Assembly (NCBI GenBank): GCA_963765625.1
Contig: CAVXXD010000005.1
Location: forward strand, 191,113-255,112
Length of the DNA stretch: 64,000 nt
Direction of reading: 5' to 3'
From: an uncultured bacterium
GTDB lineage: Bacteria > Actinomycetota > Geothermincolia > Geothermincolales > Geothermincolaceae
The position numbers were made by a program, and so were the translations under genes. Within the stretch, counting starts at the first letter, position 1, and each line of letters begins with the position of its first letter. The notes beneath the pieces are model-generated. The model ran no database searches, was not told the origin of the DNA, and worked only from the letters and a program-made list of their open reading frames with translations. This document shows, in pieces, positions 15,480 through 33,890 of this stretch.

Positions 15480-15490
15480 AGTTTATTTTA

Positions 15491-16270: not shown

Positions 16271-16310
16271 GTTGGCCCAATTATAAGGAGGGCAGGTGAC
16301 AAAATCCCTG

Positions 16311-16338: not shown

Positions 16339-16374
16339 CTTTCTTCAATAACCGTTCTTCACACTCATCAGCTC

Positions 16375-16698: not shown

Positions 16699-16726
16699 AT
16701 CTCTTTCACCTCCTCCCTCTAGCCTT

Positions 16727-16755
16727 CAAACAGAAAAGGCCCCTAAATGGGGCCC
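16727..16755 (-). terminator. Rho-independent terminator downstream of pilA copy 2
   Basis: Minus-strand GGGCCCC-ATTTA-GGGGCC hairpin followed by TTTTCTGTTT. Confidence 0.5.
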
Positions 16756-16790
16756 TTCCTTCAATAACCGTTCTTCACACTCATCAGCTC

Positions 16791-17114: not shown

Positions 17115-17233
17115 ATCTCTTTCACCTCCTCCCGTCACAATCTCTTTCCTGTTCACTTTCTTTAATAACAATATCGGGCTTGCCAGGAAATACCTTTAGG
17201 GTATTTTTCGTCTTCTGGTGAGACTAGACCCAT

Positions 17234-20140: not shown

Positions 20141-21066
20141 TCCCTTTCCCTCCTGCTGCTGACGTGCGCCAGAAAATACTCCTCCAGGGTGATCCTTCGA
20201 GGCTTGACCTCGAGGATGCGCGCCGGCTTCGTCGACAGTTCCCGCAGGAATAGATCGAGATTGGGGCGGGGCACGATGAACCCGGGAGCGCCTTCCGTCT
20301 TCCTGGCCCCCAGCAGCTCGAGCTTTTCTGCCTCCAGTTCTTCTTCTCCATCCAGGGTGACCTGATAAGTCTCCTCCCGGCCCAGCAGGTCGGATATGGA
20401 GCCCTGGGCCACCTCCCTGCCCCGGTCGATGATGCAGAGGTGGTCGCATATCTCTTCCACTTCGGAGAGCTGGTGGGAGCTTAAAAGAATGGTGGTCCCC
20501 TGCTCACTGGTATCCTGCAGGATCTTCCGGACCTCCATCTTTCCCAGGGGATCAAGCCCGGTGGAGGGTTCATCCAGGATCAGCAGCGAGGGCTGGTTTA
20601 ACAGCGCCTGGGCGATGCCCAGCCTCTGCAGCATACCTTTGGAGAAACGGCTGAGTGCCAGGTCGCGCTCCCTGGAAAGCCCTACTAGAGACAGTAGGTG
20701 GGAGACACGCACGTCAATCTCGGGATCCGGCATGTACATCAGCCTGCCCAGGTAGCGCAGGATACGGTTGGGCGTCAGGTAATAATAGAAATACGGCTGT
20801 TCCGGCAGGAACCCCATGCGCTGCCGCGCCCGGGGCTCGCGCCAGTCGTCCCCGAAGATGCGCACCTCCCCTTCGTCTGGAACGAGGAAGTCCATGATTA
20901 TCTTGAGGGTGGTGGTTTTACCCGCTCCGTTGGGGCCCAGCAAGCCCATCACCTTTCCGGCAGGCAGAGTGAAGCTCAGCCCGTTCAAGGCCTGACGGCG
21001 CTCCTTGTGAAAACCTATGCGATAGCTCTTGCCCAGGCTCTTGACGTCAAGTGCCACATCGGACAT
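20137..21066 (-). CDS. ABC transporter ATP-binding protein (PilH-like)
   Basis: 309 aa; Walker A GPNGAGKTT, ABC signature, Walker B ILDEP. Confidence 0.88.
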   Translation of the reverse strand: MSDVALDVKSLGKSYRIGFHKERRQALNGLSFTLPAGKVMGLLGPNGAGKTTTLKIIMDFLVPDEGEVRIFGDDWREPRARQRMGFLPEQPYFYYYLTPNRILRYLGRLMYMPDPEIDVRVSHLLSLVGLSRERDLALSRFSKGMLQRLGIAQALLNQPSLLILDEPSTGLDPLGKMEVRKILQDTSEQGTTILLSSHQLSEVEEICDHLCIIDRGREVAQGSISDLLGREETYQVTLDGEEELEAEKLELLGARKTEGAPGFIVPRPNLDLFLRELSTKPARILEVKPRRITLEEYFLAHVSSRRERE

Positions 21067-21083: not shown

Positions 21084-22208
21084 TCAGCCGATCAGACGTT
21101 GCATCTCGTCACGGTTGGCGCAGCGGGCCATGGCTACCTCGAAAGATACGATGCCGTTCTTGTAGAGAGCGGCGATAGAGTGGTCCATAGTCTGCATGCG
21201 ATATTGTCCGCCCGCCTGCATGGCTGAGTAGATCTGGTGGGTTTTGCCTTCCCGGATCATGTTGCGGATGGCCGAGGTGGCGATCATGATCTCCACCGCC
21301 GGAACCCGGCCCTTGCCGTCACGTGTAGGCAGGAGCTGCTGGGTGATGATGGCCTGCGTCGTGCCCGCGAGCTGGATGCGCACTTGCGCTTGCTGGTAGG
21401 TGGGGAAGACGTCGATGATGCGGTCGATGGTCTGGGGGGCATCCTGGGTATGCAGGGTGGCGAATACCAGGTGGCCGGTTTCCGCCGAGGTTAAAGCGGT
21501 GGATATGGTTTCCAGGTCTCGCATCTCACCCACCAGGATAACATCGGGGTCCTGGCGCAATACATACTTCAAGGCATTGCCGAAAGAATGGGTGTCCGCG
21601 CCGACTTCGCGCTGGTTGATGATGCAGCGTTTGTGAACGTGGAGGAACTCGATAGGGTCCTCGACGGTGATGATGTGGTCGTTGCGGGTCTCGTTGATCA
21701 GGTCGATAATGGCGGCCAGCGTGGTGGATTTGCCCTGGCCGGTGGGCCCCGTGACCAGGACGAAACCGCGTGGCAACTGGGTGAGGTCCTTGATTACCGG
21801 AGGCATGTTTAGCTCCTCCACCGTCTTGATGCGATAAGGGATGATGCGGAAGGCGGCGCCCAGGCTGTTTCTCTGGAAGTAGGCGTTGACCCTGAACCGG
21901 GCGCTGCCCGGCACCGAGTAGGAGAGGTCGTATTCCAGGTTGGCTTCCAGCTGCTCCCTCTGGCGGGCCGTGAGGATGCTGTAGATCATGTCCCGCGTGT
22001 CGTTGCCGGTAAGCCTGGGGTACTCCTCGATCCGCTGCAGTACGCCGTTGATGCGCATGACCGGTGGTGCTCCCACGGTTATGTGTAGGTCGGAAGCCCC
22101 ACGGACCAGGACTTCTTCCAGCATTTCGTTGATATCGATCTTCTTCTTGGTCGTGGTCAATTCAAAAACCTCCCTTATCCGGCAAGCCGCCTCGAAGACA
22201 TTCGACAA
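21084..22208 (-). CDS. pilT: Twitching motility / pilus retraction ATPase PilT
   Basis: 374 aa; ASDLHI, Walker A GPTGQGKSTT, PilT family motifs. Start could instead be the internal MLEEVL... Confidence 0.9.
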   Translation of the reverse strand: MSNVFEAACRIREVFELTTTKKKIDINEMLEEVLVRGASDLHITVGAPPVMRINGVLQRIEEYPRLTGNDTRDMIYSILTARQREQLEANLEYDLSYSVPGSARFRVNAYFQRNSLGAAFRIIPYRIKTVEELNMPPVIKDLTQLPRGFVLVTGPTGQGKSTTLAAIIDLINETRNDHIITVEDPIEFLHVHKRCIINQREVGADTHSFGNALKYVLRQDPDVILVGEMRDLETISTALTSAETGHLVFATLHTQDAPQTIDRIIDVFPTYQQAQVRIQLAGTTQAIITQQLLPTRDGKGRVPAVEIMIATSAIRNMIREGKTHQIYSAMQAGGQYRMQTMDHSIAALYKNGIVSFEVAMARCANRDEMQRLIG

Positions 22209-22251
22209 TCCGTAGAAATATTATAAACCAATCTCCCTCGTAAAGCATGGG

Positions 22252-23910
22252 CTACATAACAACCCTCAACACTTCATCCAGTGAAGTCACGCCCTGCAGC
22301 ACCTTGGCAAAACCGTCCTCTCTCAGGGTTACCATTCCCTCGGCTTTCGCCAGTTTGGCGATCTCGATATGCGGAGCGTTCTTGGCCACCAGTTTCTCGA
22401 TCTCCTCGCTGACCCTCAATATCTCGTAGACTCCGACCCGCCCCTTGAACCCGGTATTGTTGCAGGCTGCGCAACCGACCGGTTTATAGAGCGTCATTTT
22501 TTCCTGTATGGGAAACCTGATCTCCTGGAGGTATTTCTCCTCCGGCTCGATGGGCTCCTTGCAGCGCTCGCATAACCTGCGGGTAAGACGCTGAGAGGTG
22601 ATGCAATCGATGGCTGAGGCGATGAGGAAAGGTTCGATGCCCATCTCCAGCAGGCGGGTCAGGGCGCTGGGGGCATCATTGGTGTGCAGGGTAGCCAGCA
22701 CCAGGTGCCCGGTGAGGGCCGACTCGATGGCGATCTGGGCCGATTCCTGGTCACGGATCTCACCAACCAGGATGATGTCGGGGTCACAGCGGAGGAAAGA
22801 GCGCAGGGCTCCCGCGAAGGTCAGCCCGGCCTGGTAATGCACCTGCACCTGGTTGATAAGGGGAAGCCGGTACTCCACCGGGTCCTCCACCGTCATGATG
22901 TTCTTGGCGATATCGTTCAGGACGTTAAGGGTGGCGTACAGGGTGGTGGTCTTGCCGCTGCCCGTAGGCCCGGTGACCATGATGGCGCCATAGGGCTTGG
23001 TAAAGCTTTCCTTGAAGTTGTCGAGAGATTCGGGCGTAAAGCCCAGGTCCGACAGGGTCAACAGCGCATTGCTCTTGTCCAGGATGCGCAGCACCACTTT
23101 CTCGCCGTGGATGGTGGGGAGAGACGCGACACGGATATCCACGGGCTTCCCCAGCACGTCCATGGCGGCCCTGCCGTCCTGGGGCAGTCGCTTCTCGGCG
23201 ATGTTCATGTCCGCCATGACCTTGATCCTGGCAACCACGCCCGGCTGGAGCTTCTTGGGAGAACGCCTGATCTGGTGGAGCACGCCGTCTATGCGGTAGC
23301 GGATACGTACGTCGTCCTCCATGGGCTCGATGTGGATGTCGCTGGCCCTTTCCCGAACGCCCTCGCTGATCAGCAGGTTCACGTACTTGACGATCGGGGC
23401 CTCAGCCGCCGCGTCGTCGCTCTCGTCGATATCTTCGATGTCGTCATCAAGCTCGCTCAGGTCGATGTTGGTATCGGTTCGGCAGAATCGATTGATGGCG
23501 CCGATGATGTCGTCCTTGGTGCTGACGGCAGGCTCGACTTCCAGGCCGGTCATGATACGTATGTCGTCCAGGGCAAAGACGTTGGTGGGGTCGGCCATGG
23601 CCACCAGCAGCTTGCCGTCCTCTATGGAGATGGGGATTATGTTGTATTTGCGGGCCGTCTCGGCGTCCACCAGGGACGTGGCGGCGATGTCCACCTGGTA
23701 ACTGCTGAGGTCGACGTACTTCATGCCGATCTGCTGTGCCAGGATGGCGGTGAGTGCCCCTTCGCTGACTATCTTCAGCTCTATGAGTACGCGGCCCAGA
23801 GACTTGCCGCTGGCTTGCTGCTTCTCCAGCGCTTCGGCCAGCTGGTCTTCGTTTATGATCTGGTTCTGAAGCAGGATCTGTCCGAGTTTGTCCTGTTTAG
23901 GCTTTTCCAT
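22252..23910 (-). CDS. pilB: Type IV pilus assembly ATPase PilB (GspE family, N-terminal GSPII domain)
   Basis: 552 aa; N-terminal GSPII-type domain, Walker A GPTGSGKTTT, tetracysteine motif. Confidence 0.92.
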   Translation of the reverse strand: MEKPKQDKLGQILLQNQIINEDQLAEALEKQQASGKSLGRVLIELKIVSEGALTAILAQQIGMKYVDLSSYQVDIAATSLVDAETARKYNIIPISIEDGKLLVAMADPTNVFALDDIRIMTGLEVEPAVSTKDDIIGAINRFCRTDTNIDLSELDDDIEDIDESDDAAAEAPIVKYVNLLISEGVRERASDIHIEPMEDDVRIRYRIDGVLHQIRRSPKKLQPGVVARIKVMADMNIAEKRLPQDGRAAMDVLGKPVDIRVASLPTIHGEKVVLRILDKSNALLTLSDLGFTPESLDNFKESFTKPYGAIMVTGPTGSGKTTTLYATLNVLNDIAKNIMTVEDPVEYRLPLINQVQVHYQAGLTFAGALRSFLRCDPDIILVGEIRDQESAQIAIESALTGHLVLATLHTNDAPSALTRLLEMGIEPFLIASAIDCITSQRLTRRLCERCKEPIEPEEKYLQEIRFPIQEKMTLYKPVGCAACNNTGFKGRVGVYEILRVSEEIEKLVAKNAPHIEIAKLAKAEGMVTLREDGFAKVLQGVTSLDEVLRVVM

Positions 23911-24784
23911 CCCGTCCTCCCGCGCACAACCTTCCGCTCATCAATTCCTCCTCGAGGGCACGACGCATCTTGGCCAGGGGCGGCTCTGTCCCCGTCCATA
24001 TGCGGAAAGATCCCGCCGCCTGGTACAGGAGCATGGGGCGGCCGTTCACGGCCATCGCCCCCCTCTTCTCGGCCTCCCGCAAGAAGGCCGAGCGGTGCGC
24101 CAGGTAGCCCAGGTCCAGTGCTACCTGCCCCGGAGTGAACATGCCGTAGTCGACGGGCAGTTCACCCGGTACGTCCCGATCAAGGGGAGTGGAGTTCACT
24201 ATACAGGAGCATTCCCGCAATACGCGAGCTCCAGCTTCCTCATATTCCTGGATGTATATTTCGTCAAAGATGCCTTTACTCTTTAAGATTCCTCGCAATT
24301 CCTCCGCCCTTTCCCTGCTGCGGTTGAAAATATGGAGCGAGTCGGCCCCCATTCGGGATAGCGCCAGGGCGGCCGCCCTGGCCGCTCCGCCCGCGCCGAT
24401 CAGGAACGCCGGCCCCGCCGGGTCGGCCCCTGCTTCCCGCAGAGAGCGCAGGAGGCCTTCGGCGTCGGTGTTGTAACCGATCATCATGTCCCCCTCGTAA
24501 CTGACGGTGTTCACTGCGCCCAGGACCAGGGCGTCATCTCTCACCTCGTCCACCAGCCCACAGGCTTCCACCTTATGGGGGATGGTTACGTTCAAGCCGC
24601 GGAAGCCGGAGGAGCGCAACCCCTCAAGCGCCGGCTTCAGACAACCCGGCTCCACCCTGAGGGGCAGGTAGGCCCAGTTCAGGCCGAGAGCCTCGAAGGC
24701 GGCATTGTGCATGGCGGGAGAAGGCGATCTGCCGATATCCCCGCCCACCAGGCCCGTCAGAACCGTCTGTCCGTCTATCCTCAT
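23897..24784 (-). CDS. aroE: Shikimate dehydrogenase
   Basis: ~295 aa from ATG 24784 (MRIDGQTVLTGLVGGDIGRSPSPAMHN...). The ORF-track 363-aa form overlaps the GTPase gene and is rejected. NADP-binding GAGGAARA. Confidence 0.8.
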   Translation of the reverse strand: MRIDGQTVLTGLVGGDIGRSPSPAMHNAAFEALGLNWAYLPLRVEPGCLKPALEGLRSSGFRGLNVTIPHKVEACGLVDEVRDDALVLGAVNTVSYEGDMMIGYNTDAEGLLRSLREAGADPAGPAFLIGAGGAARAAALALSRMGADSLHIFNRSRERAEELRGILKSKGIFDEIYIQEYEEAGARVLRECSCIVNSTPLDRDVPGELPVDYGMFTPGQVALDLGYLAHRSAFLREAEKRGAMAVNGRPMLLYQAAGSFRIWTGTEPPLAKMRRALEEELMSGRLCAGGRDGKA

Positions 24785-24884
24785 GTGGTACTCCGGGTTC
24801 CTTTCTTTCCTTTGATTATACTCTCCGAGCACAGCCCGGCAGACCGGAGAAATAGCGGTCACGGTACGAGATTTTCCGGAGGTC

Positions 24885-25418
24885 TTACTTGTCGAGGGTC
24901 TTGAGGATGTCGTACAGCAGGCCAAGGAGGACCTTCTTGACGTCTTCCTTTTCCTTGGCATCGCAGGCGATGATCTGGATCTCTCCATCCATGTTCAGTT
25001 CCTTGCGGATCTTCTCGATGATGGAGTCCTTGTCGTTCTCGGGAATGCTCCTGGCCCCGATCACGTATGGGGTATCGGACAGTGTGGCAAAGAACTCCAG
25101 GATGCGCCGGGCTTCCGCGAAGGTCTCGTCCCTGCTGGCATCGACCATGATGATGTAACCCAGCATGCCTTCGGAGAGGATCTGCCACATGAAATCGAAA
25201 CGCTCCTGTCCTGGAGTTCCGAAGAGGTACAGGACGATGTCCTTGGATATGGTGATGCGGCCGAAGTCCATGGCCACGGTGGTTTCCTGTTTTACGGAAC
25301 GGGTATGGTCGGATATCGACCTCTCAGTGGAGACTATGGCGATCTCCGAGATGGTCTTGATGAATGTCGTCTTACCGGCACTGAAGGGACCGGTCACAAC
25401 GATCTTGAATGAACGCAA
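24885..25418 (-). CDS. Small Ras-like GTPase of the roadblock-associated MglA/CvnD (conservon GTPase) family
   Basis: 177 aa; G1 GPFSAGKTTF, TVAMDFGRI, G3 LYLFGTPGQERF; close match to Streptomyces CvnD-type GTP-binding proteins. Confidence 0.8.
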   Translation of the reverse strand: MRSFKIVVTGPFSAGKTTFIKTISEIAIVSTERSISDHTRSVKQETTVAMDFGRITISKDIVLYLFGTPGQERFDFMWQILSEGMLGYIIMVDASRDETFAEARRILEFFATLSDTPYVIGARSIPENDKDSIIEKIRKELNMDGEIQIIACDAKEKEDVKKVLLGLLYDILKTLDK

Positions 25419-25430: not shown

Positions 25431-28400
25431 TTACAGTTTCTTGATCCCATCGATGATGCGCACGATGATGCCCTTGGTGACAGTCTTGTCGCGCTTCACC
25501 TTGGGGACCGGTTTTCCCTTGGCCATTTCCTGCATAGGGCTCTCTCCTTCCTTTACGGGCGTCCCGGGCTTGACCGGGATCTTGATCTTCTTGGTCGGCT
25601 GAGGGGCTCCGGCACCGGTCAGTTCCGCCAGTTCCCTCTCCAGCGAGAAGGAGCCTGTGTCATAAGACTTCTGTCCTCCCGGAGCAGCCTCTTCAAACTC
25701 AAGAGCCTGTTCCATGGCCGGCGACGCGGTCGCAGCCACCTGGGGCTCCTCTAATGTTTTCGGCACGACATCCTCTTTCACCTCGGGGATATTTGCCGTG
25801 GGGGGTGCGCCTGCCGCAGCGGAAGGCCGGGCCACCGCCCTGGGCGCAGCCGTCGGCCTGGGCGCAGCGGCCACAGGCGGGGCCTCAATGGGCGGCACGG
25901 GCGTGGGTACGGTGGCGGCGGGCGCTACGGGCTCCGGCCTCGGCGCAGCGGCCACAGGCGGGGCCTCCATGGGCGGCACGGGCGTGGGTACGGTGGCGGC
26001 GGGCGCTACGGGCTCCGGCATAGGCGCAGCGGCCACAGGCGGGGCCTCCATGGGCGGCACGGGCGTGGGTACGGTGGCGGCGGGCGCTACGGGCTCCGGC
26101 ATAGGCGCAGCGGCCACAGGCGGGGCCTCCAGCTCGGGCTCCGGCATAGGCGCAGCGGCCACAGGCGGGGCCTCCATGGCCGGCACGGGCGTGGGTACGG
26201 TGGCGGCGGGCGCTACGGGCTCCGGCATAGGCGCAGCGGCCACAGGCGGGGCCTCCAGCGAGCGCTCCAGCAACTCCAACTCCATCTCGGTAGTCTGTGG
26301 CGCGGCGGGAGCCGGGGCCTCTTCAACCGTCTCCGTAGCCCCCAGGAGGTTCTCCAGCATGTCCAGCTCGCCGGCCTGTGGCGCGGTAGGAGCCTCTGCC
26401 TCCTCCACCGCTTCCGGCATATCGATTATGCGTTCCAGCATGTCCAATTCGGAGGGCTGGGGCCCGGTGGCAACCGGTGTTTCCTCCTCCACCGTTTCCG
26501 GCGCCTCCAGGAGGTGCTCCAGCATGTCCATGTCGTAGGGGGCAGGCGCGGCATAAGGTGAAGGTTCGGGAGAAACGGTGGGTGCGCTGGGCGCTTCCGC
26601 CACTTCCGGCGCTCCCATCAGGTGTTCCAGCATGTCCAATTCGGAGGGCTGCGCGGCAGGTTCGGGCTCTTCGAAGACCACGGCCCTCTCCGGCGCCTCC
26701 TCCGTTACTTCCGCCGCTTCCATGAACTGTTCCATCATCTCGGTCTCGGACGGTCCGGTTACAGCGGGGGCCGCCGGCTCAGATTCCTCGAGGACGACGG
26801 CCGGCTCAGGGACCTCCTCTGCCGTCTCCTCTTCCGCCAGGCTCTTCTCGATCTCTTCTATGTCGGTGAGGATATCCTCCTCGAGGGCGATTTCTTCTCC
26901 AGAAAACAGCTCCTTCTCCAGAGCGGCTAGATCGTCTTCCAGCCCTTCCAATCCTTCCAGCTCTTCAGGCAGCCGGGCGACTTTCTCTTCAGCTTCCTCG
27001 ACGGCCGGGGCAGCCCCGGAGATGGCTTCTCCGGCTTCGTAGTCGACCAGCATGTCGTCTTCCAGTTCCTTGATGCTCAAGCTCTCCGATGGCGCGCCGG
27101 CAGCCGTAGCCCCTACCTCCACGGGTACCCTGGCTTCTTCCATGGGCTCTGTCACTTCTTCTAACCTGGTGGCCGCATCTGCCGCCGTCTCCAGCTCGAC
27201 CAGGTCCTCCTCGATCACTCCCTCCAGCATATCCATCTCGAGTTCCTCGATGCGGAGGAAGGTGTCGTCGATGACAGGCGCTTTGGCCTTTTCAGCCCCG
27301 GCCTGTTCCGCTTCCTCGGTCACGGACGCCGGCGCGGCCACAGCTGGTTCCAACGGCTCCGCCTCTTCCCCAACGTCCTCGAGCATCTCTTCTTCGAGCA
27401 GCTCGATGGGGTCCCGGGTGGAAGTGAAACCGGCTGCGCGAGGATGCCCTTCGGCTATTCCGGTCCCCTCCAGGGCTTCCTCGTCCTCGATCGTGCCGGT
27501 GCCATAATCTCGCGACGTCCTCTCCGCCATGGCGACGGATGCTTCCGTGTCCCCCATGCGGTCCCTGAGGCTCTCGGCCATGTCCGGCCCCAGTTCTTCC
27601 ACCAACTTCTCGATGGAGATACTGCCGGTGGGCCTCTTCAGGCTGACGACGTTCTCGCCGTAGACATTCTCGCCTTCTTCTTCCCCCTGTTCGCCGCCCC
27701 GGAACGCGGCGCCCAGGATTTTGGTGGGGTCGATGCCGCGCCCTCCCGGGACGCCTATCTCCGCCTTGCCGGACGGCAGTCCCCCCACCAGGTCGTCCTC
27801 AGCTTCATGCCGGTGGGATATACGGTCAAGGTGTCCGCTCCACTCCATGGGGATCTCTTCCGGCTCCATCTCGGCCGGGCTTTCCTGGTCCGCGAGCTTG
27901 CCGATCTTCCCGTATCTTTTCTCGAGGTAGGCGCGTTTGGCCGCCTGGGCCTCGATGCTCTCTTCGGTTATGCTCTTGTGGTGGTAGGAAGGCGGCTGCT
28001 TCTCTCCGGCAGCGGCGTCCGCGCCAGGCGCCTCCTCCTCTTTTTCCCCGAGGCCCATGCCTTCCGGCAGGAGGGAGATGATCTTTTCCTTGAGGATGTT
28101 CAGTTCTTCTTCCTTTTCCCCCAGCTTTATCTCGGCGACGGCTTCCTGGCTGTCTTCAAGGGTAGCCCCCCTCATCTCGCTTATCGCGCTGGTCTCTTCC
28201 GCCTCTATCTCCTCAAGCAACTTCTTGCCCACGCCTGGCAGGTCACCCAGACCTTCCAGCGGTATCTCCTCCAAGGCTCCTTCTACCCCGGCGGGAGCTT
28301 CGGCCTCCTCTTCCGTTTCCAGCACGTCCGACAGCATATCCGCTTCAAGTTCTTCCACCTGGCCCAACGGCTCGGACGCCGCCTGTTCGGTCAAGGCAGT

Positions 28401-29828
28401 CACGTCGACGGCTTGTTCCACCATTCCGAAATCCACTACCTGCTCGGCGGCTTCCGCCACCAGGTCCTCCAGCTCAACGACAGGCTCTTCTACTGCAATC
28501 GGCTCCTCGACCACCGGCAGTTCCGCAACGACCGCCTCTTCCGGAACCTGCGTTTCGGCCTCTTCTTCTTCAGCCAGGACGTCCTCGGCTATCTCTTCGC
28601 TGATCTCTTCGATGCCCTCTACTTCCTCGGCTTCCTCGATCCCGATGATCTCTTCGTCGACCGGGATTTCCTCTATGAGGATCTCCCCTTCCATGTCTTC
28701 TTCGATCTCGACTTCCATTGCTTCCGCAAAGGACTCTTCCGGCTCGACGGCAACGACCTTCTCCATTGCCGGAGAGGCTTCGACGGTTTCTTCCTCGATC
28801 TCTTCGACGACTTCTTCCCCGATCTCTGCAGCAGCCTCTGGTTCGGTTTCTTCCGAAACCGGGGTCCCGACTTCGACCATCAGTTCCTGAACCTGTTCCA
28901 GCAAGGTGGTCTTGGATACCTCTCTGACCGGCTTGGTCGGCGGTGCTTCTTCAGCCGCGGTGAAGTCCACTTCAGGCTCTTCCGCTACTATGGGGGCCAG
29001 CTCTTCCTCACTGGGAGCGGGAAAGACGGGTTTCACGTCCGCCTTCTCTTCGAGCTGCATCAACTCTTCGGCCATCCGCTCCAGTTCCTGCTCCACCTTG
29101 GCGTCGGTCTTGTCGGGGGAGACGTTCTCCAGCAACCCCGAAGAGATCAGTCCGTAGACTATCTTGCAGGTCTGCAGGGTGCCCATGCCGGCCATGTCCA
29201 CGATGTCCTTGACCGTACGCTCTCCGTCCACGAAGGTGAGGACCATCCACTCCTCCGGGGTCAGGCTGATCTGCGCGGCTAGCCTCTCATTCATGGACTT
29301 CATCTTGAAGATGACGTCAAGGTCGGGGATTTTCTTCTCTATGCGGTTCCACTCGTCCAACCGGCGGGACCCCTCCATGATCAGCTCCTCGGTGCTGATG
29401 GACAGGCCGATGTCTTCCTCCGGGAAGACCACGCCGGGCTGGAATTCGAATTCGCCTTCCGTCCAGCGCAACAGTTCAAAGACGGCATCCTGGATCTGCT
29501 CCTGCACGAAAAGCTCGAGTTTGTCCTTGGTCAGATAGCCCAGGCGGATGAGCAACTGCCCCAGGCGTTGACCGCGGGCGGTGGTCCTCTGCAGTTCGAG
29601 GGCCTCGTCCACCTGTGCCTTGGTCACGATACCTACCTGCAGCAGCTTTACGCCCAGTGGCTTCCTCTTCCAGTTGGTGGTAGCGAAGAACACCTCCCCG
29701 TTCCGGAAACAGACATAGCCCCTGGCATTGCCGCGCAGCAAGTTGAGGGTTCCGTTCTTCTTGCTGAAATTGAGCAGCTGGAAGAGGTCTGGCAAGCTGA
29801 AATCCTTGAGGCTACCTTTTAAGGCCAT
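25431..29828 (-). CDS. Giant DUF4388 (PATAN-like, MglA-partner) domain protein with ~1200-aa acidic repetitive low-complexity region
   Basis: 1465 aa single ORF; N-terminal SLKDFSLPDLFQLLNFSKKNGTL...ELLRWTEGEFEF matches the DUF4388 consensus. The remainder is E/A/P/V-rich with 27-aa APPVAAAPMPEPVAPAATVPTPVPPME tandem repeats and recurrent ELDMLExLL motifs; short basic C-terminus. Confidence 0.75.
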   Translation of the reverse strand: MALKGSLKDFSLPDLFQLLNFSKKNGTLNLLRGNARGYVCFRNGEVFFATTNWKRKPLGVKLLQVGIVTKAQVDEALELQRTTARGQRLGQLLIRLGYLTKDKLELFVQEQIQDAVFELLRWTEGEFEFQPGVVFPEEDIGLSISTEELIMEGSRRLDEWNRIEKKIPDLDVIFKMKSMNERLAAQISLTPEEWMVLTFVDGERTVKDIVDMAGMGTLQTCKIVYGLISSGLLENVSPDKTDAKVEQELERMAEELMQLEEKADVKPVFPAPSEEELAPIVAEEPEVDFTAAEEAPPTKPVREVSKTTLLEQVQELMVEVGTPVSEETEPEAAAEIGEEVVEEIEEETVEASPAMEKVVAVEPEESFAEAMEVEIEEDMEGEILIEEIPVDEEIIGIEEAEEVEGIEEISEEIAEDVLAEEEEAETQVPEEAVVAELPVVEEPIAVEEPVVELEDLVAEAAEQVVDFGMVEQAVDVTALTEQAASEPLGQVEELEADMLSDVLETEEEAEAPAGVEGALEEIPLEGLGDLPGVGKKLLEEIEAEETSAISEMRGATLEDSQEAVAEIKLGEKEEELNILKEKIISLLPEGMGLGEKEEEAPGADAAAGEKQPPSYHHKSITEESIEAQAAKRAYLEKRYGKIGKLADQESPAEMEPEEIPMEWSGHLDRISHRHEAEDDLVGGLPSGKAEIGVPGGRGIDPTKILGAAFRGGEQGEEEGENVYGENVVSLKRPTGSISIEKLVEELGPDMAESLRDRMGDTEASVAMAERTSRDYGTGTIEDEEALEGTGIAEGHPRAAGFTSTRDPIELLEEEMLEDVGEEAEPLEPAVAAPASVTEEAEQAGAEKAKAPVIDDTFLRIEELEMDMLEGVIEEDLVELETAADAATRLEEVTEPMEEARVPVEVGATAAGAPSESLSIKELEDDMLVDYEAGEAISGAAPAVEEAEEKVARLPEELEGLEGLEDDLAALEKELFSGEEIALEEDILTDIEEIEKSLAEEETAEEVPEPAVVLEESEPAAPAVTGPSETEMMEQFMEAAEVTEEAPERAVVFEEPEPAAQPSELDMLEHLMGAPEVAEAPSAPTVSPEPSPYAAPAPYDMDMLEHLLEAPETVEEETPVATGPQPSELDMLERIIDMPEAVEEAEAPTAPQAGELDMLENLLGATETVEEAPAPAAPQTTEMELELLERSLEAPPVAAAPMPEPVAPAATVPTPVPAMEAPPVAAAPMPEPELEAPPVAAAPMPEPVAPAATVPTPVPPMEAPPVAAAPMPEPVAPAATVPTPVPPMEAPPVAAAPRPEPVAPAATVPTPVPPIEAPPVAAAPRPTAAPRAVARPSAAAGAPPTANIPEVKEDVVPKTLEEPQVAATASPAMEQALEFEEAAPGGQKSYDTGSFSLERELAELTGAGAPQPTKKIKIPVKPGTPVKEGESPMQEMAKGKPVPKVKRDKTVTKGIIVRIIDGIKKL
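25864..26260 (-). repeat. 81-bp tandem repeat array (4 full + 1 partial + degenerate units) inside the giant gene
   Basis: Unit gcagcggccacaggcggggcctccatgggcggcacgggcgtgggtacggtggcggcgggcgctacgggctccggcataggc repeats at 25864, 25945, 26026, 26152; 45-bp partial unit at 26107. Confidence 0.85.
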
Positions 29829-29868: not shown

Positions 29869-30264
29869 CTACTCATATTCGATACGAAACTCCTGCTTGA
29901 TGATCTCCGCGATCTTTGTCGCGGCTCCCTTGACGTCGTACAGGACCAGCCCCAGCTTGCTACCCTTGCGCACCAGGGCGGTCAGCACCGCATCCTCCCC
30001 GGCGGACATCAGGAAGACGTAACCCGCCTTCCCTTCCACGAAGACCTGGGCCAACTCACCCCTGCCCAGTTCCTCGGAGGTACGTTCACCAAGGCTGAGG
30101 AGTGCGGCGGACATCGCTCCGAGTCGATCCTCTTCCAGGGTATTGGGGAGCACCGAGGCCATGACCAGGCCATCCATGCTCACAACCGCGGCGGCATCGA
30201 CTTCAGCGGAACGTTGAATCAGCTCGGTTAGAGCGCTTCGCAGCATTTCCTCTCTATCTGCCAA
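29869..30264 (-). CDS. Roadblock/LC7 (MglB/CvnB-like) domain protein, paralog 1
   Basis: 131 aa; Roadblock/LC7 fold pattern (AAVVSMDGLVMAS...GYVFLMSAGEDAVLTALV). Confidence 0.7.
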   Translation of the reverse strand: MADREEMLRSALTELIQRSAEVDAAAVVSMDGLVMASVLPNTLEEDRLGAMSAALLSLGERTSEELGRGELAQVFVEGKAGYVFLMSAGEDAVLTALVRKGSKLGLVLYDVKGAATKIAEIIKQEFRIEYE

Positions 30265-30293
30265 ACAGCTACCTCCTGCCTATAACGCCTTGA

Positions 30294-30668
30294 TCATGCC
30301 GAAAACAGTTCCGCCAGTTCGTCGGCGGTTTTTTTAGTCTCCATGAAGAGCACGCCCAGTTTCGCTGAAAGGTTGACCAGTACCGCCAGGATGGCTTCGG
30401 GCCCGCAGTTCATGACCAGGAGATAGCCCAGGTCTCCCTTGATGTATACCTGGTCCAGCACACCCCGCTTCAACTCCCTGGCGGCCCTTTCCCCCAAGCT
30501 CAGCACGGAGGCGGCCATGGCACTGATCTGGTCCTCGTTCAGGTCCCCCCCGACATCCGACGCCAGGGCCATGGCGTCGCCGCTCAACAGCACCGCGGCT
30601 TCCACGTCCGCGATGTTGGCCCTGAGGTCGTGAAGGATGGTATTCATTTTCTCGACTTTGTCCGCCAA
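30294..30668 (-). CDS. Roadblock/LC7 domain protein, paralog 2
   Basis: 124 aa; same fold pattern (AAVLLSGDAMALAS...GYLLVMNCGPEAILAVLV). Confidence 0.7.
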   Translation of the reverse strand: MADKVEKMNTILHDLRANIADVEAAVLLSGDAMALASDVGGDLNEDQISAMAASVLSLGERAARELKRGVLDQVYIKGDLGYLLVMNCGPEAILAVLVNLSAKLGVLFMETKKTADELAELFSA

Positions 30669-30750
30669 CGTTTCACCTCCAAAACCGGTTCATCGATAAT
30701 GCCCGCGGGCACCGCCCGGGAGCACCGAGTCTGTTCCTTGCCTCGTCCAG

Positions 30751-31104
30751 CTACAGGGATTTCTCAATGGCGGGGAGAAATTTCCTGAGATCGTAACGCG
30801 CTTTCCCCAGGTTCGCGGCTGAGGGCAGGATGGAGACCAGTATGGCATCAGACCCTACCGCGCTCATCAGGATGGCCCCCTTCTCAAACTCGAACATCGC
30901 CTGGGCCATGGGGCCCTGGGACAGTTCCAGCCCGATCACTTCAGCCGCTCCCAGCGAGCTCGGCGCGATAGCTCCGACCGCCTCCAACTGGCCGGACTCG
31001 TCTCCGGCAGTCTCGATTATAAAGCCGTCTCTCCCGACAACCAGGCAGGACCGCACCGTACCGGCAGTAACCAGTTCCTCGAGGATCCTTCTTAGATCTG
31101 CCAA
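30751..31104 (-). CDS. Roadblock/LC7 domain protein, paralog 3
   Basis: 117 aa; same fold pattern (SCLVVGRDGFIIETAG...ILMSAVGSDAILVSIL). Confidence 0.7.
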   Translation of the reverse strand: MADLRRILEELVTAGTVRSCLVVGRDGFIIETAGDESGQLEAVGAIAPSSLGAAEVIGLELSQGPMAQAMFEFEKGAILMSAVGSDAILVSILPSAANLGKARYDLRKFLPAIEKSL

Positions 31105-31604: not shown

Positions 31605-32930
31605 CTAATGTATTCCACACGGCAGGCAGGGGGCATAGGCCCGCACCACCATTTCCAACCGGTTGCGCATCACTTCCTGGGCCTCCAGGACTCCTCCCAT
31701 CTGGCTTGCGCCGCTCTTCAGGCTCTCCTGCAGGGAAAGCAGGTTGCACTGGAGGGGCGAAAGGATGTTGAGCCTTTCCAGCACGCCATTTTCGCTTATC
31801 TCGATGTAGTAAGCCATGGTGCCTTCGGGTGATTCGACCACTCCCACGCCGGTTCCGGCAGCCGCTTTAACCGGTGCCTTTACTTCCCCGCCCGAGATGG
31901 AGGCGTCACCCAATAGCGCCACCATGCGTTCCCATGCATAAGTCATCTCGATCATGCGGGCAGCGTGGTTAAGAAGAATTTTCTGTAGCTTACCGCCCCA
32001 CTGGGCCTTGAGCTCCTCGAGTTCCGCCTCGGCCTGGGGCGTTCCCAGCCGGGTGGCCACGTTAAGCCTGGAGAGGGGGCCGACCCGGAAAGTGGTCCCG
32101 TCCGCCAGGCGGGCCGTCTTGACCTGAGTGTACGGCTGTGGCTCCTCGACTAGGTGCTCGAACACAGCGTGTTCCGCTATTTCCTCCTTGACCTCTCCGT
32201 TGGCACCGACCAGCCGGAGTTTCCCTCCCTCCAGCGCCAGCCCATCTTCCCTGTGGAGGGCCAAGTGGCATGTTTCGATATCGCCCAGTGACTGTACCAG
32301 CTCGGAGTTGCGTTTGAGGAGCATCTTGACGAGCCGGGACATCTCGTCCAGCAGCGATTCCGACCTGGTCAGCAGCTCCAGCAGCTGCAGCCTCTTGTCT
32401 TCAGCCAGGGGCTTGAGCACCCCTCCCGGGACGATGTTCACTGGATGGACGGGGTTTCCCCCCGCCGCCTCAACTACCATGACTCCGAGGGCACGGAGAG
32501 AAAACACCTTGCGGACGATCTCTTCCTCCACGCGATAGATGGAGAGCATGTTACGCACGGTCACGTCGGACGTGGGAAAGAGCAGGTCAGGCAGGCTGTG
32601 CATGGTGAGGGAGAGGGCGTGGCTGCCCAGCAGCTGGCCCAGCATGATGAGCTCTCTCAACTTTACCGCCGTCTCCGGCACCTTCACTCCCAGCGCGTTC
32701 TCGACGGCCCGGGCGGCAGCCTCCTGGTGTGAGACTGCGCAGGTCCCGCAGATGCGGGAGACCAGGGGCACTACGTTTTCGAGTCGCGCGCCCTGCACCA
32801 GGCGCTCGAAGCCCCGGAAACCGGATGCGCGGAAATGGACATCCCCCAGGCTGCCGGCCTCATCGAAGATGATTTCGATGGCGGCATCCCCGGTTATCCG
32901 GGTCACCGGGTCTATCCTGATGGGGTCCAA
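31605..32930 (-). CDS. [NiFe]-hydrogenase large subunit (group 3-like, e.g. MvhA/FrhA-type)
   Basis: 441 aa; N-terminal RICGTCAVSH (RxCGxCxxxH) and C-terminal APCLPCGIH (CxxCxxH) Ni-binding motifs. The protein ends at the His, so there is no C-terminal maturation peptide. Confidence 0.8.
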   Translation of the reverse strand: MDPIRIDPVTRITGDAAIEIIFDEAGSLGDVHFRASGFRGFERLVQGARLENVVPLVSRICGTCAVSHQEAAARAVENALGVKVPETAVKLRELIMLGQLLGSHALSLTMHSLPDLLFPTSDVTVRNMLSIYRVEEEIVRKVFSLRALGVMVVEAAGGNPVHPVNIVPGGVLKPLAEDKRLQLLELLTRSESLLDEMSRLVKMLLKRNSELVQSLGDIETCHLALHREDGLALEGGKLRLVGANGEVKEEIAEHAVFEHLVEEPQPYTQVKTARLADGTTFRVGPLSRLNVATRLGTPQAEAELEELKAQWGGKLQKILLNHAARMIEMTYAWERMVALLGDASISGGEVKAPVKAAAGTGVGVVESPEGTMAYYIEISENGVLERLNILSPLQCNLLSLQESLKSGASQMGGVLEAQEVMRNRLEMVVRAYAPCLPCGIH

Positions 32931-32972
32931 CCTCTCTCCTTCCCTGTTCCGTATGGTCTAAAGGCCCGCGCT

Positions 32973-33890
32973 TCAGCGTACGGTCTCGCCCAGCCTCTTC
33001 AGGTAACGGGCCGTTCCTCCCTGCCCCTTCTTCCGCTGCAGCGGCTCGGCGAAGACGTATTTAAAAAATGTGTGCGGCGTGTCGGTCACGGCGGTCTCGA
33101 GCTCCTTGCGGGTCAGTTTGCCAGCCCTGGCCACACGGCGCAGGATATCGATGCTTATGCTGCGTATGGGCTCCAGTAGTACCTGGAGAGAGGGGCCCCG
33201 GCATCCCGTGCAGGGTGAACCCCATTCCGTGGTGCAGGCCGCGTGGCATCCACCCCGCGTCACCGGCCCAAGGCATATGAACCCCTGCTCCAGCAGGCAT
33301 TCGCCGGGGCTGGGACGGTCGGCAAGGATATCTTTGAGCCCTCCTCCCCCAGAGGTACCGCAATCCAGCCGGCACTCCGAGCAGACGTTCATCTCCTCGT
33401 CGGCGAACGGCGCCGCCAGCCCCTCCCCTTTGCCGGAAAGTTTGAGCAGGATCCAGGCCAGCGCGTCCCGGGGAGGCGGACAGCCCGGCAGCTTCAGGTC
33501 CACGTCCATGTAAGAATCAAGCGGGAGCAGCCTTCCGTACCCCTCCGGCAGGCCGACAAAACGGTGGTCGTCGTAGGAGCGCCGGAAGAGCCCTGCTTCG
33601 GAGATCTGGTTGCCCAGACCGGGAACGCCGCCGTAAACGGCGCAGCTTCCCAAGGCTATGACGCGCGAAGCCGCGGCGCGCAGGGCCAGGGCAGCCTCCA
33701 GCTGCCTCTCGTCCCGTATGCCGCCCTCGATGATGGCCAGATCGCACTCGGTCGGGCTTTTCTTGTCCATGAGGAAAGGTACGTATACCAGCTGGTTCTC
33801 CCCGATGATCTGGAAGAGCGTCTCCCCCATGTCCAGCATTGTCAACTGGCAGCCCAGGCAGGCGCTGAATGATGCTATCGCTATCTTCAT
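32973..33890 (-). CDS. [NiFe]-hydrogenase small subunit (NuoB-like fold with C-terminal Fe-S cluster domain)
   Basis: 305 aa; N-terminal FSACLGCQ and GSCAVYGG motifs, Cys-rich C-terminus. Confidence 0.7.
   Translation of the reverse strand: MKIAIASFSACLGCQLTMLDMGETLFQIIGENQLVYVPFLMDKKSPTECDLAIIEGGIRDERQLEAALALRAAASRVIALGSCAVYGGVPGLGNQISEAGLFRRSYDDHRFVGLPEGYGRLLPLDSYMDVDLKLPGCPPPRDALAWILLKLSGKGEGLAAPFADEEMNVCSECRLDCGTSGGGGLKDILADRPSPGECLLEQGFICLGPVTRGGCHAACTTEWGSPCTGCRGPSLQVLLEPIRSISIDILRRVARAGKLTRKELETAVTDTPHTFFKYVFAEPLQRKKGQGGTARYLKRLGETVR

What the first reader, a model, noticed from the sequence alone, without database searches (positions are those of the whole stretch)
25431..29828. 1465-aa protein: DUF4388 head plus ~1200 residues of acidic, proline/alanine-rich tandem repeats with recurring ELDMLExLL short linear motifs
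Only the N-terminal ~250 aa look globular (DUF4388 plus a second conserved segment, [26 protein letters not shown]). The rest is ~40% Glu/Asp+Ala+Pro+Val. It contains five 27-aa APPVAAAPMPEPVAPAATVPTPVPPME repeats, encoded by a near-perfect 81-bp DNA tandem array at 25864-26260. It also contains at least six copies of an [ED]LDMLE[HNR][LI][LIM] motif spaced ~30 aa apart, and a short basic C-terminal tail (KGIIVRIIDGIKKL). This architecture looks like a multivalent scaffold with repeated docking motifs, possibly binding the adjacent roadblock or GTPase proteins. The perfect 81-bp repeats are also prone to length variation or assembly collapse.
Basis: seen in the sequence. Interest (0 to 1): 0.65.

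Follow-up and report, generated by a model that had tools for sequence, protein, structure and literature searches.

The report
Giant-tailed PATAN regulator of type IV pili
This is a real 1465-residue cytoplasmic protein of an uncultured actinobacterium: a small folded pilus-regulator head joined to a very long, acidic, floppy tail that carries repeated short helical motifs and ends in a strictly conserved helix. It is an oversized member of a previously undescribed but widespread family that sits next to a small GTPase inside type IV pilus gene clusters.

Summary
ORF 25431-29828 (-) is intact and encodes 1465 aa. The head (about residues 1-240) is a PATAN/DUF4388 domain whose helical insertion is an MshE-type c-di-GMP motif pair, followed by a winged-helix-like domain. 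The remaining ~1200 aa are acidic (net charge -230) and mostly predicted to be disordered.

The gene is not an oddity. In all 80 related genome loci, a Roadblock gene, this gene and a small MglA-like GTPase lie together inside a type IV pilus cluster. Every intact ortholog, from 327 to 1477 aa, ends in the same C-terminal helix (...RD..V.K..h.KIIDGIKKL).

The tail evolves fast: 28-72% identity to a relative whose head is 95% identical. It still keeps sequence islands. The ELDMLE motif is enriched (5 strict copies against 0.16 expected). It recurs 10 times in the closest relative and 1-2 times in eight others.

Best reading: a pilus-motor regulator or scaffold, in which a flexible multivalent tether links a PilB/PilC-binding head to docking helices. 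The binding partners are inferred, not shown. I rate it a new variant of a known kind, of moderate interest.

The parts
25431..29828 (-). Whole gene: 1465-aa PATAN-head protein with acidic disordered tail and conserved C-terminal helix
   Evidence: Intact ORF. Orthologs with the same N- and C-termini occur in 54 complete loci.
29346..29819 (-). PATAN / DUF4388 domain, residues 4-161 (a 122-position profile spread over 158 residues because of an insertion)
   Evidence: PF14332, E 3.9e-36, 124 bits against a cutoff of 25. AF2 of the ortholog P0002 gives pLDDT >90.
29466..29675 (-). Helical insertion in PATAN, residues 52-121: MshE-type tandem c-di-GMP motif pair (PLGVKLLQVGIVTKAQVDEALELQ - RTTARGQ - RLGQLLIRLGYLTKDKLELFVQEQ)
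29121..29276 (-). Second folded domain, residues ~185-236 ([22 protein letters not shown]...): winged-helix-like
25674..29036 (-). Acidic, Glu/Ala/Pro/Val-rich low-complexity region, residues ~265-1385, predicted to be mostly disordered
   Evidence: Composition and net charge -230. Charge-hydropathy plot. 28-72% identity to L002 while the head is 92-100% identical. The equivalent linker of P0002 has pLDDT <50.
27669..28031 (-). Central conserved island, residues ~600-720 (KSITEESIEAQAAKRAYLEKRYGKI...EPEEIPMEWSGHLDRI)
   Evidence: Covered by BLAST alignments to 64-100% of close orthologs. Only 22 matches among 1.84 billion representatives, mostly ~1000-1200-aa proteins that look like orthologs, plus fragments and a few weak multi-stretch hits. 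The IPxEW..HL motif occurs in 15/23 group A, 11/12 group B and 0/44 group C proteins.
26244..26732 (-). Cluster of ELDMLE-type acidic amphipathic motifs, residues ~1033-1195, encoded by a degenerate 81-108-bp tandem array. Further copies lie near residues 497, 814, 866, 925 and 984.
   Evidence: 5 observed against 0.16 expected; families D2 and D3.
25854..26293 (-). Young, near-perfect 81-bp (27-codon) tandem array encoding APPVAAAPMPEPVAPAATVPTPVPPME units: four full, one truncated, one partial
   Evidence: TRF, 97-99% matches. The repeat finder family D1. Translation.
25434..25649 (-). Conserved C-terminal module, residues 1394-1465: SFSLERELAELTG helix, KKIKIP basic stretch, terminal helix
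   Evidence: 94-100% identical to L002. Aligned across 41 family members. AF2 predicts helices at residues 2-11 and 59-71 of the 72-aa fragment.
25434..25481 (-). Terminal helix VTKGIIVRIIDGIKKL. Family consensus: RD..V[DT][KR].hh.[KR]II[DE]GI[KE][KR]L at the C-terminus
   Evidence: In 54 complete orthologs Ile-Ile at positions -8/-7 is invariant, Val is at -16 in 52 and Gly at -5 in 46. Also present in 327-420-aa family members.
29869..31104 (-). Three upstream Roadblock/LC7 genes (30751-31104, 30294-30668, 29869-30264)
   Evidence: PF03259, E 1e-11 to 3e-19. Syntenic in all group A loci. The proximal copy is 90-98% identical among close relatives.
24885..25418 (-). Small Ras-superfamily GTPase, 177 aa, starting 12 nt after the stop codon and in the same frame
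   Evidence: Pfam ATP_bind_1, Ras, Roc and Arf. PDB matches to Rab8, Arl8 and MglA. P-loop GPFSAGKT, G3 GTPGQ, no NKxD. Seen downstream wherever downstream sequence is available: 62 of 81 loci plus 6 wider-family loci; in L084 and L087 it is called from position and size, with faint or no Pfam support.
21084..23910 (-). pilB (22252-23910, with its own MshEN motif) and pilT (21084-22208). The rest of the pilus cluster follows at 12575-18460.
   Evidence: NCBIfam and Pfam. pilC, two pilins, pilD, pilM and pilO.

Best explanation
[quoted passage not shown] It belongs to a conserved Actinomycetota module made of Roadblock protein(s), a PATAN protein and a small MglA-like GTPase.

Shown here:
- The head is a PATAN domain carrying an MshE-type c-di-GMP motif pair, followed by a winged-helix-like domain.
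- The tail is a fast-evolving, acidic region that is mostly predicted to be disordered.
- The tail ends in a strictly conserved helix.
- The tail contains conserved short motifs.
- The gene order inside pilus clusters is conserved.

Inferred mechanism:
- The PATAN head contacts the pilus extension motor (PilB and/or PilC), as PATAN domains do in Synechocystis, and may respond to c-di-GMP.
- The terminal helix and the acidic amphipathic ELDMLE-type helices are docking sites for other members of the module. The universally co-encoded GTPase or PilB are the likeliest partners of the terminal helix. The Roadblock proteins are candidates for the lineage-specific islands.
- The disordered region acts as a long flexible tether. 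Tandem duplication has made it multivalent in this lineage, raising local concentration and avidity at the pilus base.
- The 81-bp (27-codon) repeats change tail length and motif number without breaking the reading frame.
For: Head:
- PF14332, E 4e-36.
- NF053729 scores above its cutoff.
- AF2 pLDDT is >90 for residues 1-264 of ortholog P0002.

Context:
- 80 of 80 genome loci, plus L001, place the gene beside Roadblock, GTPase and pilB/pilT wherever the contig extends that far.
- Six wider-family loci show the same pilus cluster.
- The window holds a full pilus cluster.

Tail:
- Net charge is -230 and most of the tail lies on the disordered side of the charge-hydropathy plot.
- Identity to L002 is 28-72% in the tail, against 92-100% in the head and 94-100% in the last 65 residues.

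Terminal helix:
- It is invariant in 54 of 54 complete orthologs spanning 48-95% head identity and is present in 327-420-aa relatives.

Motif:
- 5 copies against 0.16 expected, with 0 of 300 shuffles reaching five.
- A window-derived profile finds it in 9 of 19 close orthologs, 10 times in L002.

Co-variation:
- Roadblock gene number is 3, 2 and 1 in groups A, B and C, and tail medians are 948, 946 and 418 aa. The central island occurs only where there are two or more Roadblock genes.

Literature:
- The PATAN domain of PixE binds PilB1, and PatA-type regulators bind PilC (bioRxiv 10.1101/2021.06.11.447907).
- MglA/MglB homologs are often encoded next to PATAN genes (same paper).
- RomR consists of a receiver domain, a disordered region and an acidic helical C-terminus, and binds the Roadblock protein MglC through that C-terminus (PMC10329633).
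Against:
- The terminal helix gets the same high pLDDT alone (83-94) as in a full-length ortholog (85-91). There is therefore no sign that it docks on the head.
- Roadblock genes are absent from 3 of 6 wider-family loci, which weakens Roadblock as a universal partner.
- Motif I of the c-di-GMP pair lacks the Arg (Pro57 here; Ser, Ala or Leu in relatives). The spacer is 7 residues rather than 5. Only 6 of 81 orthologs meet the published relaxed motif, so ligand binding is uncertain.
- Similarity between the ELDMLE copies and the single DMAVFEQMMGAVL motif of Coriobacteriia-type orthologs is marginal with an unbiased profile: 2 of 83 exceed the 99th percentile of shuffles. The regex that links them was written after seeing both motifs.
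- The correlation between Roadblock number and tail length rests on about three clades, which means very few independent events.
- High motif copy number is confined to the window and L002. It could be a neutral by-product of recent tandem duplication.
Confidence: 0.55

Rival explanations
1. The tail is only an entropic spacer or 'bristle'. Its length and charge matter, but the ELDMLE copies are hitch-hikers of recent tandem DNA duplication and are not selected docking sites.
For: - The copies lie in tandem arrays with an 81-108-bp period.
- L002's copies are nearly identical to one another, which points to recent amplification.
- 10 of 19 close orthologs have no copy above threshold.
- The tail diverges quickly.
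Against: - Motif-bearing units persist, degenerate elsewhere but conserved in the motif core (D2 copies are 64-75% identical overall yet keep CTCCAGCATGTCCA).
- The motif recurs outside the array at residues 497, 814, 866 and 925.
- It recurs as PLDMLEKLVEAPP or PIDLLERLAEAPE in orthologs with 80-82% head identity.
- The young array in this window has in fact lost the motif. Amplification and motif are therefore separable.
Confidence: 0.25
2. The C-terminal basic patch plus amphipathic helix is a membrane-targeting sequence of the MinD/FtsA type. The protein would then be a membrane-anchored acidic brush at the pilus base.
For: - In the window the last 16 residues have a hydrophobic moment of 0.52 and net charge +3, preceded by KPVPKVKRDK. 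This is comparable to the FtsA membrane-targeting sequence (0.57, +3).
- PatA-type PATAN regulators localise to the inner membrane (bioRxiv 10.1101/2021.06.11.447907).
Against: - Across 54 orthologs the net charge of the last 16 residues is 0 or negative in 27.
- Position -6 is Asp or Glu in 50 of 54, Gly at -5 occurs in 46 of 54, and Ile-Ile at -8/-7 is invariant.
- This degree of position-specific conservation, including an acidic residue, is typical of a protein-docking peptide and not of a generic lipid-binding helix.
Confidence: 0.12
3. The extreme length or the repeat number is an assembly artefact (repeat expansion, collapse or chimera), and the true gene is shorter or interrupted.
For: - Near-perfect 81-bp repeats.
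- 10 of 23 close-relative contigs end inside the tail, and L001 and L013 are frame-broken.
Against: - The ORF is intact, with the conserved C-terminal module in frame.
- 18 independent complete orthologs of groups A and B are 1037-1477 aa.
- L002, probably a long-read bin, gives 1470 aa.
- Only the exact copy number of the 81-bp unit is open to doubt, which amounts to a few times 27 aa.
Confidence: 0.05

Closest known systems
PatA-type PATAN regulators of cyanobacteria (PatA, PixE, PixG, LsiR)
   Same: They share a homologous N-terminal PATAN/DUF4388 domain with a helical insertion and a functional link to the type IV pilus motor. The PATAN domain of PixE binds PilB1, and PatA-type regulators bind PilC (bioRxiv 10.1101/2021.06.11.447907).
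   Different: This protein has no receiver (REC) domain. Instead it has a winged-helix-like domain, a ~1200-aa acidic disordered tail and a conserved terminal helix. It is encoded with Roadblock and GTPase genes rather than with a chemotaxis-like system, and it comes from Actinomycetota.
RomR of the Myxococcus xanthus polarity module (with MglA, MglB, MglC)
   Same: The layout is the same: a small folded N-terminal domain, a long disordered region and an acidic helical C-terminal part. RomR also works with a small GTPase and Roadblock proteins to control pilus polarity, and its acidic helical C-terminus binds the Roadblock protein MglC (PMC10329633).
   Different: The two are not homologous, since RomR's head is a receiver domain. 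RomR is about 420 aa. Here the very C-terminus is a basic or amphipathic helix rather than a Glu-rich one, and the acidic helices are internal and repeated.
MshE / PilF N-terminal c-di-GMP-binding domain (MshEN, GSPII)
   Different: The motif pair is inserted into a PATAN domain instead of sitting at the N-terminus of a secretion ATPase. Motif I starts with Pro instead of Arg, and the spacer is 7 residues instead of 5.
FtsZ C-terminal linker plus conserved C-terminal peptide (from general knowledge)
   Same: A globular head, a disordered linker of very variable length and poorly conserved sequence, and a short conserved terminal peptide that docks on partner proteins.
   Different: The fold and the process are unrelated. 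The tail here is up to about 10 times longer and carries internal motifs.
LAMTOR1/p18 in the Ragulator-Rag complex (from general knowledge; mentioned in PMC10329633)
   Different: There is no sequence homology. The structural hit is not significant (rmsd 11 A; Foldseek E 0.02). No wrapping interaction has been shown.

Membership tests
PATAN / DUF4388 (PF14332) | Match to the Pfam model above the gathering score | tested here: met
   124.2 bits against a cutoff of 25, E 3.9e-36, full profile 1-122 over residues 4-161.
PATAN / DUF4388 (PF14332) | Alpha-helical insertion within the domain (title of Makarova et al. 2006, cited in PMC12448109) | tested here: met
   A 122-position profile spans 158 residues. 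AF2 predicts four helices at residues 58-120, between strands 45-51 and 126-131.
PatA-type response regulator | C-terminal CheY-like receiver (REC) domain after PATAN | tested here: not met
   No Response_reg hit at E <= 0.01 in 1465 aa. No NCBIfam hit either.
MshEN-type c-di-GMP receptor | Match to the curated c-di-GMP motif model NF053729 above its cutoff | tested here: met
   42.8 bits against a cutoff of 38, residues 57-111, profile 1-53 of 53.
MshEN-type c-di-GMP receptor | Two tandem 24-residue motifs RLGxx(L/V/I)(L/V/I)xxG(L/V/I)(L/V/I)xxxxLxxxLxxQ joined by a 5-residue spacer (PMC5013675) | tested here: inconclusive
   Both motifs fit the authors' relaxed pattern. However, motif I begins with Pro instead of Arg, motif II has Tyr and Val at two positions, and the spacer is 7 residues. 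Only 6 of 81 orthologs fit the relaxed tandem pattern.
MshEN-type c-di-GMP receptor | Measured binding of c-di-GMP | not testable with these tools
   Needs ITC or DRaCALA on the purified head domain.
MglA/MglB-type polarity module | Roadblock/LC7-fold partner protein(s) encoded with the GTPase | tested here: met
   Three PF03259 genes upstream, syntenic in relatives.
MglA/MglB-type polarity module | Membership of the MglB equivalog family (NF052242) and a GTPase of the MglA family | tested here: not met
   The best Roadblock hit to NF052242 scores 27.9 bits against a cutoff of 200. The GTPase matches only generic small-GTPase models. MglA structures match at E 2e-5 to 6e-3, behind Rab8 and Arl8. 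G3 is GTPGQ, lacking Asp as MglA does, but there is no NKxD.
RomR-like polarity scaffold | N-terminal receiver domain, disordered region and Glu-rich helical C-terminus | tested here: not met
   The head is PATAN, not a receiver domain. The C-terminus is a basic or amphipathic helix. This is an analogy of layout only.
Membrane-targeting amphipathic helix (MinD/FtsA type) | Terminal amphipathic helix with net positive charge and no position-specific conservation beyond amphipathicity | tested here: inconclusive
   It is amphipathic in the window (moment 0.52, net +3). Across orthologs the net charge is <= 0 in 27 of 54, with conserved Asp/Glu and Gly.

The most novel reading that the evidence does not exclude
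The tail may be a bacterial counterpart of a Ragulator- or RomR-type platform. A giant disordered protein would use many short acidic helices and lineage-specific islands to gather several different Roadblock dimers and a small GTPase into a multivalent, possibly condensate-like hub at the base of a Gram-positive type IV pilus. The c-di-GMP-sensing PATAN head would couple this hub to PilB. Tail length and motif number would then be an evolvable dial, changed in frame by 27-codon repeats, that co-expanded with Roadblock gene duplication.
Probability: 0.12. Interest if true: 0.75.

Novelty: new variant of a known kind. Interest (0 to 1): 0.45.

Why it matters
PATAN domains are widespread but poorly understood regulators of type IV pili. 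Outside cyanobacteria and Myxococcus almost nothing is known about them. I found no description of this Actinomycetota family, which public databases label only as 'DUF4388 domain-containing protein'.

This work defines the family in terms that can be tested:
- PATAN with an MshE-like insertion, a winged helix, a disordered tether of variable length and an invariant terminal helix.
- The gene is always followed by a small GTPase and lies within pilus clusters.

The window's protein is the extreme case, with a tail of ~1200 aa and motifs amplified by in-frame tandem repeats. Together with its relatives it forms a natural series, with tails from about 90 to 1240 aa and 0 to 3 Roadblock genes. 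That series could show how linker length and motif valency tune a GTPase/Roadblock polarity module.

There is also a practical point. The gene is a recurrent assembly-break and frameshift site in metagenome-assembled genomes, so it is usually truncated in protein databases. All homologs returned by the large protein searches were 453 aa or shorter.

Tried and rejected
I used database proteins only (A5).

2. I tested whether the terminal helix docks on the head by comparing pLDDT in context (85-91) and alone (83-94). There was no difference, so there is no evidence for intramolecular docking. Coordinates and PAE are not available to me.

4. BLASTP-short between the window tail and distant tails gave only low-complexity noise.

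5. A profile of the five window ELDMLE copies searched against Coriobacteriia-type and wider family tails gave 2 of 83 above the 99th percentile of shuffles. Deep homology of the motif with DMAVFEQMMGAVL is therefore reported only as suggestive. I dropped the idea that the ELDMLE motif derives from the 'ELAELTG' motif because it is untested.

6. The relaxed MshEN regular expression failed for most orthologs, so I do not claim that the family binds c-di-GMP.

7. Pfam scans of the central island and the C-terminal module alone found no family.

8. A secreted or cell-wall protein was considered and rejected. There is no hydrophobic N-terminal signal (MALKGSLKDFSLPD...), and the domains and neighbours are cytoplasmic.

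9. The first alignment (A1) was too diverse for the locus search and was replaced by A2.
Full report

Yes. The ORF listing gives one uninterrupted ORF at 25431-29828 on the minus strand, 1465 aa with an ATG start.

Pfam places DUF4388 (the PATAN domain) at residues 4-161, E 3.9e-36.

The tail (residues 251-1465) is 21% Glu, 15% Ala, 11% Pro, 8% Val and 4% Asp. Net charge is -230 and pI 4.05. The last 135 residues are basic, pI 8.8.

Tandem Repeats Finder reports the 81-bp array at 25854-26259 with 97-99% matches, and a degenerate 81-bp array at 26317-26530. The repeat finder shows six copies spaced 81, 81, 81, 45 and 81 bp over 25773-26293. It also shows that the ELDMLE-coding units form a degenerate array of 81-108-bp period at 26272-26682, directly adjoining the young one. 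In protein terms the young array gives four full 27-aa units, one 15-aa unit and one partial unit.

Slightly relaxed forms give 5-6 copies, and DM[LI]-type variants about 8-11. Five copies of h-[ADEST]-h-h-[EDT]-x-h-h compare with 0.16 expected, and none of 300 shuffles of the tail reaches five.

Long antisense ORFs, for example 27444-29282 (+), are shadows of the Glu-rich coding strand. The minus-strand frame is the coding one because both its N- and C-termini are conserved in orthologs.

**2. What the head is**

NCBIfam model NF053729 (the MshE-related c-di-GMP motif) matches residues 57-111 above its curated cutoff. phmmer against the PDB aligns residues 52-121 to the c-di-GMP-binding N-terminal domain of Vibrio MshE (5HTL, E 6e-8) and to Thermus PilF.

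The PATAN 'alpha-helical insertion' is therefore an MshEN-type four-helix unit:
- motif I: PLGVKLLQVGIVTKAQVDEALELQ
- spacer: RTTARGQ
- motif II: RLGQLLIRLGYLTKDKLELFVQEQ

Both motifs fit the relaxed pattern used by Wang et al. (PMC5013675). However, motif I lacks the Arg that stacks on guanine, and the spacer is 7 residues rather than 5. Most orthologs fail the relaxed pattern (6 of 81 pass), although motif II residues R88, G90, L93 and Q111 are invariant. Ligand binding is plausible but unproven.

I predicted the structure of a 450-aa ortholog (P0002, 81% identical head) with AlphaFold2 and a 41-sequence alignment. pLDDT is >90 for residues 1-264. The fold reads as a beta-alpha-beta-beta-beta core, the four inserted helices, a further strand and helix, and then a three-helix-plus-strand unit at residues 191-236.

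Weak Pfam hits to HTH_27 and MarR_2 agree.

**3. Genomic context**

On the same strand lie, in order:
- three Roadblock/LC7 genes
- this gene
- a 177-aa small GTPase, starting 12 nt after the stop codon
- aroE, pilB (with its own MshEN motif) and pilT
- an ABC transporter and a TPR protein
- pilC, two pilins, the prepilin peptidase, pilM and pilO

A scan of one genome per species returned 80 loci, all from Actinomycetota. They include Candidatus Geothermincola and Solincola, Anoxymicrobiaceae and Coriobacteriia-type bins. The window therefore comes from a Geothermincolia-like organism.

tblastn of the window's neighbours shows the order Roadblock(s), PATAN gene, GTPase, flanked by pilB and pilT, wherever the contig reaches that far. 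There are:
- three Roadblock genes in group A (77-95% head identity)
- two in group B (59-64%; confirmed by Pfam in L025)
- one in group C (48-52%; L043)

Six loci of a wider family of 327-420-aa proteins show the same pilus cluster. Three of them (L084, L085, L087) have no Roadblock gene.

**4. What the tail is**

The full-length proteins recovered from the loci fall into three length classes:

| Group | Complete orthologs | Length range (aa) |
|---|---|---|
| A | 11 | 1037-1470 |
| B | 7 | 1071-1477 |
| C | 36 | 538-839 |

Database homologs of the wider family are 327-420 aa.

*The terminal helix.* All of these proteins end in the same helix. Across 54 complete orthologs the Ile-Ile at positions -8/-7 is invariant. 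Val at -16 occurs in 52, Arg-Asp at -20/-19 in 42 and 45, Gly at -5 in 46, and Asp or Glu at -6 in 50. The consensus is RD..V[DT][KR].hh.[KR]II[DE]GI[KE][KR]L at the C-terminus.

Because the net charge of this peptide is zero or negative in half the orthologs, and it contains a conserved acidic residue and a conserved Gly, I read it as a protein-docking helix and not a generic membrane anchor.

*Rate of change.* Against the nearest relative L002, identity is 92-100% in the head, 28-72% along the tail and 94-100% in the last 65 residues.

*Disorder.* The charge-hydropathy plot puts the tail on the disordered side. The exceptions are the Pro/Ala repeat, which at 33% Pro cannot fold compactly, and the C-terminal module. 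The equivalent linker of P0002 has pLDDT <50.

*Conserved islands.* Two islands survive in the tail:
- A central island, residues ~600-720 (KRAYLEKRYGKI ... EPEEIPMEWSGHL). BLAST alignments cover it in 64-100% of group A orthologs. Its IPxEW..HL core occurs in 15/23 group A and 11/12 group B proteins but 0/44 group C proteins. A full HMMER scan of 1.84 billion representatives finds it only 22 times, mostly in ~1000-1200-aa proteins that look like orthologs, plus short fragments and a few weak multi-stretch hits.
- The C-terminal module SFSLERELAELTG ... KKIKIP ... terminal helix.

**5. Is the ELDMLE motif conserved?**

A profile built only from the window's five strict copies was searched against group A tails, with shuffled tails as the control. 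The results were:
- L002: 10 copies (SELDMLERIIEEP, in a different tandem unit)
- L003, L004, L018 and L022: 2 copies each
- L005, L007, L009 and L020: 1 copy each

That is 9 of 19 orthologs above the 99th percentile of shuffles. Other group A orthologs carry variants such as ILESVMLEDIP and PIDLLEQLAQAP.

Coriobacteriia-type orthologs have one conserved motif, [ST]xxDMAVFEQMMGAVL, about 70-100 residues after the head. It shares the h-x-h-h-E-x-h-h pattern. That pattern was written after seeing both motifs, and the unbiased profile gives only marginal scores there: 2 of 83 above the 99th percentile, and 12 of 83 above the 95th, most of them at that same site.

So the motif is conserved within Geothermincolia, and its deeper ancestry is only suggestive. 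High copy number is limited to the window and its nearest relative.

**6. Repeat instability and assembly**

The unit is 81 bp, which is 27 codons, so gains and losses keep the reading frame.

The window and L002 have 95% identical heads and similar total lengths (1465 and 1470 aa) but have amplified different units. The window amplified a Pro/Ala spacer unit, and L002 amplified motif-bearing units.

Of the 23 group A loci, 10 contigs end inside the tail and 2 are frame-broken. L001 breaks at a homopolymer run. The large protein databases returned no homolog longer than 453 aa, which is consistent with systematic truncation.

The window's ORF is intact. Only the exact number of 81-bp copies remains uncertain.

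**7. How it most likely works**

Shown here:
- the domain content of the head
- the tail composition, which is mostly predicted to be disordered, and its rapid divergence
- the conserved islands and terminal helix
- the invariant neighbourhood

From the literature:
- The PATAN domain of PixE binds PilB1, and PatA-type regulators bind PilC and localise to the membrane (bioRxiv 10.1101/2021.06.11.447907).
- MglA/MglB homologs often neighbour PATAN genes (same source).
- In Myxococcus, RomR (receiver domain, disordered region, acidic helical C-terminus) binds the Roadblock protein MglC through its acidic helix and builds the polarity module (PMC10329633).
- MglA acts through adaptor proteins to recruit PilB (PMC11580455).

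Inferred: the head engages the pilus motor and may sense c-di-GMP. The terminal helix and the acidic amphipathic motifs dock module proteins. The disordered region is a long tether whose valency was raised by tandem duplication.

For the terminal helix, the partners encoded in every locus are the GTPase and PilB. Roadblock is not universal.

For the central island, the co-occurrence with two or more Roadblock genes, and the parallel rise of tail length with Roadblock number, point to the extra Roadblock paralogs. This rests on very few independent events.

I could not test any interaction. The only test available, pLDDT of the terminal helix alone against in context, was uninformative.

**8. 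Comparison with known systems and novelty**

The protein is a bona fide PATAN-domain protein. It is not a PatA-type response regulator, because it has no receiver domain. It is not a RomR homolog. It resembles RomR, the linker-plus-terminal-peptide layout of FtsZ, and LAMTOR1 of Ragulator in design only.

The GTPase resembles MglA in lacking the G3 Asp (GTPGQ). It has no NKxD and matches no MglA-specific model.

The PATAN-MglA/MglB association and GspE_N-type annotations on some PATAN proteins were already noted in the literature. New here:
- the definition of the Actinomycetota family with its invariant terminal helix
- the winged-helix domain
- the lineage-specific islands
- the extreme, repeat-driven expansion of the tail

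I rate this a new variant of a known kind, interest 0.45.

Noticed in passing
window 24885-25418 (-): The small GTPase downstream has a normal P-loop (GPFSAGKT) and an MglA-like G3 lacking Asp (GTPGQ). It has no NKxD/TKxD guanine-specificity motif; the nearest sequence is NDKD. Its best Pfam hit is ATP_bind_1, so nucleotide specificity may be relaxed.
   Followed up: partly
window 22252-23910 (-): PilB carries its own MshE-type c-di-GMP motif (NF053729, E 1.2e-15, residues 8-60). Two proteins of the cluster may therefore respond to c-di-GMP. Coriobacteriia-type loci have two pilB genes flanking the module.
   Followed up: partly
window 23897-24988 (-): aroE (shikimate dehydrogenase) is embedded in the pilus cluster and is syntenic in nearly all related loci. 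The listed ORF overlaps the GTPase gene by about 100 nt, and the Pfam match starts at residue 80, so the true start is probably internal.
   Followed up: no
window 31605-33890 (-): Mvh/Vhu-type [NiFe] hydrogenase large and small subunit genes lie directly upstream of the Roadblock genes. They are syntenic in Geothermincolia relatives, with a ferredoxin-like gene between in L001 and L025.
   Followed up: no
window 27444-29282 (+) and other + strand ORFs across 25700-29800: Long antisense ORFs (up to 612 aa) overlap the gene. They are stop-free shadows of the GAG/GAA-rich coding strand and could be miscalled as genes.
   Followed up: partly
window 18615-21066 (-): An ABC transporter ATPase and permease and a TPR protein sit between pilT and pilC. 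Distant PATAN homologs are fused to TPR repeats (P0016-P0024, P0123-P0145). This recalls the TPR adaptor SgmX of Myxococcus.
   Followed up: no
L001 10440-10900 (GCA_936414295.1): The ortholog is split into 221-aa and 893-aa gene calls by a frameshift at an A-homopolymer. This is probably a long-read error, and it shows how this gene is lost from protein databases.
   Followed up: yes
L084, L085, L087: Wider-family loci lack a Roadblock gene between pilB and the PATAN gene, yet keep the GTPase-sized downstream gene and the terminal helix. In L087 the downstream 177-aa gene has no Pfam hit at all.
   Followed up: partly
[not shown]
   Followed up: partly
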